This document shows, in pieces, positions 20,600-64,000 of a DNA stretch of 64,000 nucleotides; positions within the stretch are counted from its first letter, which is position 1, and every line of letters begins with the position of its first letter. The notes beneath the pieces are model-generated. The model saw only the letters and a list, made by a program, of their open reading frames with translations. It was not told where the DNA came from and did no database searches. The position numbers and the translations under genes are program-made. Source of the stretch: the human T2T-CHM13v2.0 reference genome, Homo sapiens; the NCBI RefSeq assembly GCF_009914755.1, contig NC_060943.1; one strand, 5' to 3'.

Positions 20600-20720
20600 A
20601 AAAAAAATCCTTTTTTCCGACCCATGTGGACCAGGCTGGCCTCGAACTCGTGCCCTGGAACCCCCGCCTCCGTGAGGGCCCGACGGCAGGCGCAACCGGC
20701 CTGAGCCACAATGGCTCCGG
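20600..20720 (-). ncRNA. SNAR-A: snaR-A small NF90-associated RNA, copy 1 (G37 variant)
   Basis: Reverse complement is CCGGAGCCATTGTGGCTCAGGCCGGTTGCGCCTGCCGTCGGGCCCTCACGGAGGCGGGGGTTCCAGGGCACGAGTTCGAGGCCAGCCTGGTCCACATGGGTCGGAAAAAAGGATTTTTTTT. A box at 20696-20708, B box GTTCGAGGC at 20639-20647, T8 terminator. Confidence 0.95.
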
Positions 20721-20767
20721 GTGTCGGGGCTGTCCTTTAGTCCCTTTGATCTTACGCAGGGTGAGGG

Positions 20768-20853
20768 AGCCAATCACCAGAGGCTCCCCCCTGTCGTCAC
20801 CCAGTCCCCAGGGCCAGTGAGGGCCCTGCGTTCCATGGCGCCCCCTGGAGGGA
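20768..20853 (-). promoter_or_regulatory. snaR upstream cassette: NF-Y CCAAT box (20770), CGTCA half-CRE, CTCF-like motif (20836-20853); repeated before all 11 genes
   Basis: agccaatcac at about -50; gtcgtcac; TCCCTCCAGGGGGCGCCA on the minus strand at about -116 to -133. Confidence 0.65.
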
Positions 20854-59708: not shown

Positions 59709-62653
59709 GTGTCGGGGCTGTCCTTTAGTCCCTTTGATCTTACGCAGGGTGAGGGAGCCAATCACCAGAGGCTCCCCCCTGTCGTCACCCAGTCCCCAGG
59801 GCCAGTGAGGGCCCTGCGTTCCATGGCGCCCCCTGGAGGGAGGAAGGGGAACTGTATCTGAGAGTTCAGTATCTGACAATAAGGAAAAGGCATGGTAGAT
59901 CAGATGGTGCCTAGTGTTCTGGGGAGAAGAAACAACGGGGTTGGGGAATGCGGAGTTGCAGTTTATAATACAGGCCTCATGTATAAGGCAGACCTCATGG
60001 GGAAGGTAACATCTGTGCAGAGAAATGGAGATGAGGGCTAGGAGCCATGCAAATACTGGAACATGCTTGCCAGCAGAAGTCGAGAAACAAGGCTGGCGCA
60101 GTGGCCCACACCTGTAATCCCAGGACTTTGGGAGGCCGAGGCAGGTAGATCACGAGGTCAGCAGTTCGAGACCAGCCTGGCCAACATGGTGAAACCCTGT
60201 CTCTACTAAAAATACAAAAATTAGCTGGGTGTGGTGGCACACGCCTGTAATCCCAGCCACTTGGGAGGCTGAGGCAGGAGAATCGCTTGAATCCAGGAGG
60301 CAGAGGTTTCAGTGAGCCAAGATCACGCCACTGCACTCCAGCCCGGGCGACACAGTGAGGCTGCGTCTCAAAAAAAAAAAAAAAAAAAAAAAATTGCCCC
60401 TTCTTAAGTTTGCATTTAGATCTCTTCTCCTTTGACCACTTTTAATTTATCTTCACTTCTGATATGACATTTAATTTTTCATTCATTTTCTGTCTATTAT
60501 TGTTCGTTTTTTAACTTAAAAAAAAATTCTGTACTTTATGAATTTCTGTTTCAAGGTGTTTTTCCCATCTCCAAATGCTTATTTGGAAATGTTTCCTTTC
60601 CTCTTGGTTCATTTCTTCTGGTGTGTGTGTGCACGCGCCCGCGTGCATGTGTGTACTCGGGTCTCATTTTCTGCTTTCTTCCTGCAGTACCTCGTTTATG
60701 GGAGATGCACTTCGCTTTTCTTATTTTTTTAGTAGAGAGGGGGTTTCACTGGTTTAGCCAGAACAGTCTCGATCTCCTGACCTCGTGATCCGCCCACCTC
60801 GGGCTCCCAAAGTGCTGGGATTCCAGGAGTGAGCCACCGTGCCCGGCCGTCCACTTTGCTTCTTGCAGAGGCTGATGGTTTGAGTAATTTCCGAGATTCA
60901 TAGCTCGAGCGCGCCCTGTTCTGTCTATGCAGTGAAGGGCAGCTTTTTGCATCCACGGCTTTTTGTTGGCAAGGAGGAATGTGCAGTGGCCAGATTTGTT
61001 TCTTCCCCTTTTGTTGCTGTTGTTGTTGTTGCTGCTGCTGTTATTGTTGTTGTTGTTGTATTTTATTTTGTAGCATCCTAAAGTGTCCCCTCCTTCTATT
61101 TCTTATCCTTATCCAGGTAGGGTTTAGAAAAGCTAACTTCAGGGGCAGGGGAGAGAGAGAAAGAGAGGAGGAGAAAATGAGAATGAATGACAATACATGA
61201 ACCCATGGGTCAACCTTTATTTCAAGGCAGCCCAAAAGGACGGCTCTCCCTTCTCTTTCACTCTCTTCTCTAGGTGTGAAGCTGATGCAGCACAGGCGAG
61301 CCCCAAAATTGAGGCTTAGCCCGGGGGGGTTCTTGGCTTCTCCTAGAAACTAATTCAAGAAGCCGGGCGCAGTGGCTCACGCCTGTAATCCCAGCACTTT
61401 GGGAGGCTGAGGCGGATGGATCACTTGAGGTAAGGAGTTCGAGACCAGCCTGGCCAACATGGTGAAACCCCATCTCTACTAAATATACAAAAATTACCCG
61501 GGCATGGGGACGGGTGCCTGTAATCCCAGCTATTCAGGAGGCTGAGGCAGGGGAATCGCTTGAACCCGGGAGGCGGAGGTTGCAGTGAACAGAGATCGTG
61601 TCACTGCACTCCAGCCTGGGTGATAGAGTGCGACTCCGTCTGAAAAAAAAAAAAAGAATTCAAGGGCAGGCCGGTGGTTTTAGACGGCAACCTTTACCGA
61701 AGCCTCAGTGCACAGCCACAGCAGAGGGACACACACCTGTATCTTTTCTAAGACTGGGAGAATTTTACAATTGCTTGACTAATTGAACAGTGCCTCGAGG
61801 ATGTTACACTAGGTTATAAATAAATTCCTGCCGTGTTTAGCTGAGGCACGAACACAATGCCCACTGACAATTCCACTTTCCTCGAGGGCCATTCTTTATG
61901 AAAGGCTGTAGGAGTTCCACGACATTGTTGATTCCTGGATTCTCCAAGTCTCTAGAACTTGAGAACTACTTTTGTGTATTTTTTTAACCTTTAAGTTCAG
62001 AGTTTCTAATGTCCGTTTTATACTACTATAAAATGGTACTATGTATTCTTTATTGATGGTACTATTTACACTTTATTTTATACAGACTCTGGCTCCACAA
62101 AAAGGTTAAAAATTAGCCAGGTGCAGTGGTGCACATCTGCGGCCGCAGCTACTCAGGAGGCTGAGGCAGAAGGATTGCTTGAGCTCGGATGGTCAGGGCT
62201 GCAATGAGCTATGATCACACATCACATCAATGCACTCCAGCCTGGGCAACAGAGTGAGACCCTGTCTCTAAAAGAATAGAAGAGGCTGGGCGCGGTGGCT
62301 CACGCCTGTCATCCTACCACTTTGGGAGACCAAGGCGAGTGGATCATTTGAGGCCAGGTGTTCAAGACCAGCCTGGTCAACATGGCGAAACCCCATCTCT
62401 TGGCAGGCGACTGTAATCCCAGCTACTCAGGAGGCTGAGATAGGAGACTCCCTTGAACCGACGAGGCGGAGGTTGCAGTGAGCGAAGATCACACCACTGC
62501 ACTCCAGCCTGGGCAACAGAGCAAGGCTCGGTCTCCCAAAAAAAAAAAAAAAAAAAAAGACACATGGAAGTAATTTAAAAACACTTAGGAAGATGTCATT
62601 TCTTCCTATCAAGGCGTCCTCCCTTTATGTTTTGTCGTTATATTGGGAACGAT

Positions 62654-62774
62654 AAAAAAAATCCTTTTTTCCGACCCATGTGGACCAGGCTGGCCTCGAA
62701 CTCGTGCCCTGGAACCCCCGCCTCCGTGAGGGCCCGACGGCAGGCGCAACCGGCCTGAGCCACAATGGCTCCGG
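62654..62774 (-). ncRNA. SNAR-A: snaR-A copy 11 (G37)
   Basis: Same as copy 1. Confidence 0.95.
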
Positions 62775-64000
62775 GTGTCGGGGCTGTCCTTTAGTCCCTT
62801 TGATCTTACGCAGGGTGAGGGAGCCAATCACCAGAGGCTCCCCCCTGTCGTCACCCAGTCCCCAGGGCCAGTGAGGGCCCTGCGTTCCATGGCGCCCCCT
62901 GGAGGGAGGAAGGGGAACTGTATCTGAGAGTTCAGTATCTGACAATAAGGAAAAGGCATGGTAGATCAGATGGTGCCTAGTGTTCTGGGGAGAAGAAACA
63001 ACGGGGTTGGGGAATGCGGAGTTGCAGTTTATAATACAGGCCTCATGTATAAGGCAGACCTCATGGGGAAGGTAACATCTGTGCAGAGAAATGGAGATGA
63101 GGGCTAGGAGCCATGCAAATACTGGAACATGCTTGCCAGCAGAAGTCGAGAAACAAGGCTGGCGCAGTGGCCCACACCTGTAATCCCAGGACTTTGGGAG
63201 GCCGAGGCAGGTAGATCACGAGGTCAGCAGTTCGAGACCAGCCTGGCCAACATGGTGAAACCCTGTCTCTACTAAAAATACAAAAATTAGCTGGGTGTGG
63301 TGGCACACGCCTGTAATCCCAGCCACTTGGGAGGCTGAGGCAGGAGAATCGCTTGAATCCAGGAGGCAGAGGTTTCAGTGAGCCAAGATCACGCCACTGC
63401 ACTCCAGCCCGGGCGACACAGTGAGGCTGCGTCTCAAAAAAAAAAAAAAAAAAAAAAAATTGCCCCTTCTTAAGTTTGCATTTAGATCTCTTCTCCTTTG
63501 ACCACTTTTAATTTATCTTCACTTCTGATATGACATTTAATTTTTCATTCATTTTCTGTCTATTATTGTTCGTTTTTTAACTTAAAAAAAAATTCTGTAC
63601 TTTATGAATTTCTGTTTCAAGGTGTTTTTCCCATCTCCAAATGCTTATTTGGAAATGTTTCCTTTCCTCTTGGTTCATTTCTTCTGGTGTGTGTGTGCAC
63701 GCGCCCGCGTGCATGTGTGTACTCGGGTCTCATTTTCTGCTTTCTTCCTGCAGTACCTCGTTTATGGGAGATGCACTTCGCTTTTCTTATTTTTTTAGTA
63801 GAGAGGGGGTTTCACTGGTTTAGCCAGAACAGTCTCGATCTCCTGACCTTGTGATCCGCCCACCTCGGGCTCCCAAAGTGCTGGGATTCCAGGAGTGAGC
63901 CACCGTGCCCGGCCGTCCACTTTGCTTCTTGCAGAGGCTGATGGTTTGAGTAATTTCCGAGATTCATAGCTCGAGCGCGCCCTGTTCTGTCTATGCAGTG

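What the first reader, a model, noticed from the sequence alone, without database searches (positions are those of the whole stretch)
20600..64000. Higher-order repeat: L-S-S-L-L-S-S-L-L-S-S with a ~16.82-kb period
Seen: copy n to n+4 distances are 16819-16825 bp for all seven comparisons. Diagnostic variants repeat in phase for copies 1-4 versus 5-8: tacttcg after 1 and 5; ccttgtg after 2 and 6; catccgcgg after 3 and 7; cgccggcg after 4 and 8; a longer A-tail before 3 and 7. Inference: a recent four-gene block duplication, i.e. satellite-like higher-order organisation in an RNA gene array.
Basis: partly seen in the sequence, partly recalled or inferred. Interest (0 to 1): 0.7.

Follow-up and report, generated by a model that had tools for sequence, protein, structure and literature searches.

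The report
One four-gene duplication in snaR-A array
In a known cluster of small-RNA (snaR-A) genes on human chromosome 19, one four-gene, 16.8-kb block sits twice in a row, likely from a single recent unequal crossover; it is a two-copy duplication, not a satellite-like repeat of many copies.

Summary
The numbers are right: 11 snaR-A copies, with n to n+4 distances of 16,819-16,825 bp. Only units 1-4 and 5-8 are true copies: 2, 1, 0 and 1 substitutions, 4 in 17.3 kb. The apparent third period is not a copy: 16 substitutions in 9.7 kb, unit 9 is one substitution from unit 8, and units 10-12 form their own group. Its spacing matches only because any two long plus two short units add up to 16.82 kb. 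Beyond the window the order runs S, S, then 16 long units, so the block covers 8 of 28 units. The array, its 5.3-kb unit and the short units were published in 2007, and the NCBI36 coordinates there read L-SSS-LLLL with no such block. All 7 short units share one 2,283-bp deletion between two Alus with 26 bp of microhomology. The sister array holds a similar three-unit duplication. Misassembly is unlikely but untested. Verdict: a real but ordinary block duplication in a known gene array. Side result: CHM13 holds 69 array genes against 21 in NCBI36.

The parts
20200..37019 (.). Block copy A (units 1-4, L-S-S-L), about 16.82 kb; ends approximate, left end lies between 20200 and the first informative site
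   Evidence: the last out-of-block difference on the 16.82-kb diagonal is at 20199; 4 substitutions from 20200 to 37502
37020..54324 (.). Block copy B (units 5-8); homology to copy A ends before 54325
   Evidence: 16 substitutions from 37503/54325 onward in 9.7 kb
54325..64000 (.). Units 9-11 (L-S-S): same spacing but not a third copy; unit 9 is closest to unit 8, and units 10-12 group together
20600..20720 (-). snaR-A copy 1 (SNAR-A4), G at RNA position 37
25945..26065 (-). snaR-A copy 2 (SNAR-A14), G37
29008..29128 (-). snaR-A copy 3 (SNAR-A5), consensus C37
32073..32193 (-). snaR-A copy 4 (SNAR-A6)
37419..37539 (-). snaR-A copy 5 (SNAR-A7), G37
42765..42885 (-). snaR-A copy 6, not in the hub's RefSeq table, G37
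45829..45949 (-). snaR-A copy 7, not in the RefSeq table
48895..49015 (-). snaR-A copy 8 (SNAR-A8)
54241..54361 (-). snaR-A copy 9 (SNAR-A9)
59588..59708 (-). snaR-A copy 10, not in the RefSeq table
62654..62774 (-). snaR-A copy 11, not in the RefSeq table, G37
21255..23563 (+). In long unit 1: the 2,283-bp segment missing from short units plus the 26-bp microhomology at each end (unit offsets 656-681 and 2939-2964), each inside an Alu-like element in the same orientation
   Evidence: 82% identity between the two elements; the Alu label is recalled and agrees with PMC2094060
26600..26625 (+). Short-unit deletion junction in unit 2; the same junction lies at 29663, 43420, 46484, 60243 and 63309, and in unit 12 outside the window
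   Evidence: identical in 7 of 7 short units against 5 long units tested

Best explanation
This is the known snaR-A/B/D tandem gene array, in which a four-gene block (long-short-short-long, 16.82 kb) is present twice, likely made by one recent unequal crossover or sister-chromatid exchange offset by four units. Shown: two near-identical block copies; a third stretch with the same spacing but a different SNV pattern; one shared Alu-to-Alu deletion junction in all short units. Inferred order: (1) a long unit like unit 13 lost 2,283 bp by recombination between two Alus, making the short unit once; (2) long and short units were amplified and mixed by single- and multi-unit exchanges; (3) one four-unit exchange copied units 1-4; (4) short gene-conversion patches between neighbours account for 3 of the 4 differences between the copies. 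The block probably has no function of its own beyond adding four Pol III genes; the period is a by-product of having two unit lengths.
For: In-phase pairs differ by 2, 1, 0 and 1 substitutions, against 3-15 between neighbouring units 1-8. The rate on the 16.82-kb diagonal rises 7-fold past 37503 (0.023% to 0.165%, binomial p = 7e-5). Shuffles: 215 and 925 of 200,000. All 7 short units share one junction with 26 bp of microhomology and no inserted bases. Unit 13 carries 5 of the 7 alleles that separate short from proximal long units; the other 15 long units among 1-23 carry 0. The sister A/C array has a three-unit duplication (4, 1, 2 substitutions). In a toy model, 16-44% of arrays show a complete two-copy block of 3 or more units once multi-unit offsets are allowed, against 0 of 1,261 with single-unit steps (parameters arbitrary). 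NCBI36 reads L-SSS-LLLL.
Against: No second complete haplotype or raw reads were available, so neither the event nor its polymorphism is shown. Unit 5 is a mosaic (unit-1 alleles at three sites, unit-4 alleles at two), so one clean crossover does not explain every site without conversion. Units 8 and 9 are as close as units 4 and 8 (1 substitution each), so the order of those events is unresolved. NCBI36 may be collapsed rather than a different haplotype. Replication-based template switching would leave the same product.
Confidence: 0.8

Rival explanations
1. An incipient higher-order repeat: the L-S-S-L block has become the unit of amplification, and other haplotypes carry several copies.
For: In-phase divergence is about ten times lower than between neighbours, as in HORs. 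Spacing stays in phase for 2.75 periods.
Against: Only 2 copies by SNV; the third period fails. The block covers 8 of 28 units. NCBI36 has none. Other block sizes occur: three units in the sister array, plus a pair two units apart with 0 differences.
Confidence: 0.1
2. A false duplication in the CHM13 assembly.
For: The copies are 99.98% identical by substitutions. Older references have far fewer units. No reads were checked.
Against: The copies differ at 4 substitutions plus several A-run lengths, against an estimated 1 error per 10 Mb (PMC9186530 passage). The longest exact repeat after homopolymer compression, within window 19001-64000, is 8.7 kb, well under the 20-kb HiFi reads from which the graph was built.
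Confidence: 0.06
3. The long/short order is kept by selection, for example for gene spacing or chromatin looping of Pol III genes.
For: None found beyond the regular spacing.
Against: The order differs between CHM13 and NCBI36. The 19 complete sister-array units examined (of 39) are all long. The toy neutral model produces such blocks.
Confidence: 0.04

Closest known systems
snaR A/B/D cluster, 19q13.33 (Parrott and Mathews 2007, PMC2094060; Parrott et al., PMC3045588)
   Same: Same locus, same 5.3-kb unit, and short units lacking the L1-bearing segment; irregular unit lengths already noted.
   Different: Print has 9 A + 2 B genes and three short units (L-SSS-LLLL); CHM13 has 23 A + 6 B, seven short units and the doubled block. 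The paper ascribes short units to an Alu-Sx insertion; the sequence shows a plain deletion between two existing Alus.
Alpha-satellite HORs and NBPF/Olduvai 3-mer HORs (PMC10475015, abstract and introduction)
   Same: A multimer of distinct units repeated head to tail, with copies far more alike than neighbours.
   Different: Two copies rather than many (47 NBPF HORs in that paper). Monomers differ by under 0.5%, not 30-50%.
Composite macrosatellite arrays in CHM13 (Hoyt et al., 10.1101/2021.07.12.451456, passages)
   Same: Multi-kb units built of transposon pieces in tandem, attributed to unequal crossing over.
   Different: 'snaR' does not occur in that main text; its supplementary table of composites was not seen.
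Alu-Alu-mediated deletion
   Same: Two same-direction Alus, microhomology at the equivalent position, one chimeric Alu left.
   Different: Nothing mechanistically; here the product was then amplified as a repeat unit.

Membership tests
snaR-A genes (Rfam RF02556) | Match to the family model above the gathering score | tested here: met
   11 of 11 copies, 138.6-143 bits against a cut-off of 98
snaR-A genes (Rfam RF02556) | In a 5.3-kb tandem unit on 19q13.33, with short units lacking the L1 segment | tested here: met
snaR-A genes (Rfam RF02556) | Pol III transcription of these copies | not testable with these tools
   Shown for the family in print; no expression data here
Higher-order repeat (Willard sense) | Distinct monomer types in a fixed order | tested here: met
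   Units 1-4 differ from one another by 5-15 substitutions; same order in units 5-8
Higher-order repeat (Willard sense) | Divergence between HOR copies about tenfold below that between neighbouring monomers | tested here: met
   0.023% in phase against about 0.06-0.5% between neighbours; holds for two copies only
Higher-order repeat (Willard sense) | An array of many tandem HOR copies | tested here: not met
   2 copies, 8 of 28 units; the third period differs by 16 substitutions in 9.7 kb
Higher-order repeat (Willard sense) | Strongly diverged monomers (30-50% in alpha satellite) | tested here: not met
   Under 0.6% among units 1-12; definition
Higher-order repeat (Willard sense) | The multimer recurs across haplotypes as the unit of gain and loss | tested here: inconclusive
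   Absent from the one other assembly seen (NCBI36 coordinates), which may be collapsed
Alu-Alu-mediated deletion (short unit) | Both breakpoints in same-direction Alus at the equivalent position, with microhomology and a chimeric product | tested here: met
   26 bp in 7 of 7 short units; Alu identity recalled, subfamily not tested

The most novel reading that the evidence does not exclude
The snaR arrays are large, unrecognised copy-number-variable macrosatellites (69 genes in CHM13 against 21 in NCBI36), and L-S-S-L is a young higher-order repeat that other haplotypes carry in three or more copies. Two of its four genes bear a C37G change predicted to weaken the hairpin by 4 kcal/mol, so block dosage would shift both the amount and the make-up of a cancer-linked Pol III RNA.
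Probability: 0.12. Interest if true: 0.55.

Novelty: new member of a known kind. Interest (0 to 1): 0.22.

Why it matters
The block itself is minor: a snapshot of routine turnover in a tandem gene array. What may be useful is that a 2024 snaR-A preprint still counts 14 genes, while CHM13 has 36 A-type copies. Unit-specific SNVs and the G37 allele give markers for typing array haplotypes and for asking which copies are transcribed.

Tried and rejected
A third HOR copy (units 9-11): rejected on SNVs. A block framed as units 2-5/6-9: worse, because pair 5/9 differs by 5 and pair 1/5 by 2. Short units as Alu insertions: rejected, as they have no columns of their own beyond A-run differences. Independent origins of short units: rejected, with one junction and 7 shared alleles. 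A clean period in distal units 13-23: none; units 15, 16, 17, 20 and units 18, 19, 21, 22 form two interleaved groups, and lag-3 pairs differ by 6, 7 and 2. The first homopolymer-compressed repeat scan skipped lags through a bad filter and was redone. The left-edge junction test anchored in the wrong Alu, so no breakpoint is claimed there. Ten literature searches turned up no paper describing the block or the CHM13 gene count; 'snaR-A'+'CHM13' and 'snaR-A'+'polymorphic'+'copies' each gave 0 papers. Only 20 of the 40 sister-array units were compared by sequence.

Full report
Observation. BLAST with copy 1 finds 11 copies in the window with spacings L S S L L S S L L S (L 5345-5347, S 3063-3066), and all seven n to n+4 distances fall in 16,819-16,825 bp. 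All 11 match Rfam snaR-A above its cut-off; the hub's RefSeq table names 7 of them. A period-4 order arises in 4 of 252 arrangements of 5 L and 5 S, and the in-phase SNV match arose in 215 (free) and 925 (L/S fixed) of 200,000 shuffles of units 1-12. The pattern is more than chance.

Extent. The array runs on for about 90 kb past the window: 23 A-type and 6 B-type genes plus snaR-D (each search scored 40 of 78-79 candidates, but the hits tile the array without gaps). The 28 intervals read L SS LL SS LL SSS, then 16 L. The period ends just after the window.

How many copies. I define unit n as gene n up to gene n+1. In-phase pairs 1/5, 2/6, 3/7 and 4/8 differ by 2, 1, 0 and 1 substitutions; 5/9, 6/10 and 7/11 by 5, 8 and 6. 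Along the 16.82-kb diagonal there are 4 substitutions in 20200-37502 and 16 in 37503-47177 (p = 7e-5). Unit 9 is 1 substitution from unit 8, and units 10-12 share alleles that units 2, 3, 6 and 7 lack. A tree of units 1-23 on 3,019 gap-free columns (units 24-28 left out) pairs 1/5, 2/6 and 3/7 and joins 4 with 8+9; conversion breaks the tree's assumptions, so supports are modest (67-95). So there are two copies, and the third period matches in length only because any 2 L + 2 S give 16.82 kb. Three of the four differences between the copies are alleles shared with adjacent units, which suggests gene conversion (inference); one is private to unit 6. With a recalled rate of 1.25e-8 per base per generation and 29 years, one private change gives about 70,000 years (95% range 2,000-380,000) and all four give about 280,000 (75,000-710,000). 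These are rough, but they place the event within the human lineage.

Origin of the short unit. All 7 short units have the same junction against the 5 long units tested: 2,283 bp lost, 26 bp of microhomology, each end inside a same-direction Alu-like element (82% alike), with no insert (Alu label recalled). Seven sites separate all short units from proximal long units; long unit 13 has the short-type allele at 5, and the other 15 long units at none. The simplest reading is one Alu-Alu deletion in a unit-13-like ancestor (inference; conversion from neighbouring unit 12 could also give some of these alleles).

Is it special? In the sister A/C array, for which I compared units 2-20 of 40, units 2-4 and 5-7 differ by 4, 1 and 2 substitutions against about 40-130 between neighbours, and units 16 and 18 are identical. 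A toy model of neutral block gain and loss gave a complete two-copy block in 0 of 1,261 arrays with single-unit steps, and in 193 of 1,212, 381 of 1,071 and 407 of 930 with longer offsets (only arrays of 15-32 units kept, parameters arbitrary). Such blocks are an expected product of unequal exchange.

Assembly. Not tested with reads. The copies are not identical. The longest exact repeat after homopolymer compression in window 19001-64000 is 8,704 bp, against 20-kb HiFi reads and about 1 error per 10 Mb (PMC9186530, passages). I put misassembly at about 6%.

What is in print. PMC2094060 (passages, section 18, Table 1) reports the 5.3-kb repeat and three units lacking the L1. Its NCBI36 starts give 5337, 3065, 3064, 3059, 5354, 5352, 5354, 5328, that is L-SSS-LLLL, and list all 9 A genes as 100% consensus. 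PMC3045588 (part 2 of 8, passages, section 19, supplementary PDF text) notes the irregular unit lengths; its Figure S9 is a picture and its dataset file is unreadable here, so they may show more. PMC3337139 (part 1 of 3) reviews the duplications. PMC10320979 (passages, section 5, supplement searches) lists chr19:53,150,093-53,219,766 and 50,794,308-50,944,722 among large CHM13/GRCh38 differences without naming snaR; I saw 32 of 146 chr19 places, and no entry starting 5309-5313 was found in the text held. Passages of PMC9151912, PMC7073466 and 10.1101/2024.07.02.601767 say nothing on array structure; the last counts genes 1-14. 'snaR' is absent from the main texts of 10.1101/2021.07.12.451456 and 10.1101/2021.05.26.445678 (supplements not seen), and PMC13419748 has only 'snarl'. 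The HOR definition is from PMC10475015 (abstract and introduction). Ten searches found no description of the block; most subscription papers are outside the library.

Verdict. It works like the first step of a higher-order repeat, but fails the many-copies test and is not filed as one. It is a real, probably haplotype-level, four-gene duplication in a known array. Interest 0.22. The larger gene count and the G37 allele are the leads worth following.

Noticed in passing
G000:C19:53092600-53227762 and 50738577-50948154: CHM13 holds 23 A + 6 B genes distally and 13 A + 27 C proximally (69 in all), against 9 + 2 and 5 + 5 in NCBI36. Four of the 11 window copies are not in the RefSeq table.
   Followed up: partly
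window 20684, 26029, 37503, 42849, 62738: C37G in the RNA of copies 1, 2, 5, 6 and 11 (5 of 23 distal A genes; 0 of the 7 proximal A genes seen). Predicted fold is -53.9 against -57.9 kcal/mol and the Rfam score 138.6 against 143. NCBI36 lists all nine as consensus.
   Followed up: partly
L021-L026 (G000:C19:50738698-50770875): Three-unit C-A-A duplication in the sister array (4, 1, 2 substitutions); L035 and L037 are identical by substitutions.
   Followed up: yes
L003 (unit 13): A long unit with 5 of 7 short-type alleles on both sides of the deleted segment: a candidate relative of the unit from which the short form arose.
   Followed up: partly
window unit 1 offsets 682-2964, and the same segment in units 4, 5, 8, 9: The 2.28-kb long-only segment has no substitution among the five proximal long units, yet carries 9 of the 11 fixed differences from all distal long units: two separate homogenisation zones in one array.
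   Followed up: partly
L014-L018: Five snaR-B units differ by only 0-2 substitutions in 5.39 kb, a very recent single-unit expansion; unit 23 is an A/B hybrid.
   Followed up: no
window 16500-19600: Left flank is 96% identical to G000:C19:53697392-53699932 (minus strand), which fits the published SYT3/parent-locus duplicate; 18634-19300 resembles a snaR unit at only 78-79% and passes into array sequence within an Alu.
   Followed up: partly
window 13780-15460: SVA-like retrotransposon (hexamer repeat, 37-49-bp VNTR, A tail; label recalled) with many 89-94% matches genome-wide.
   Followed up: no
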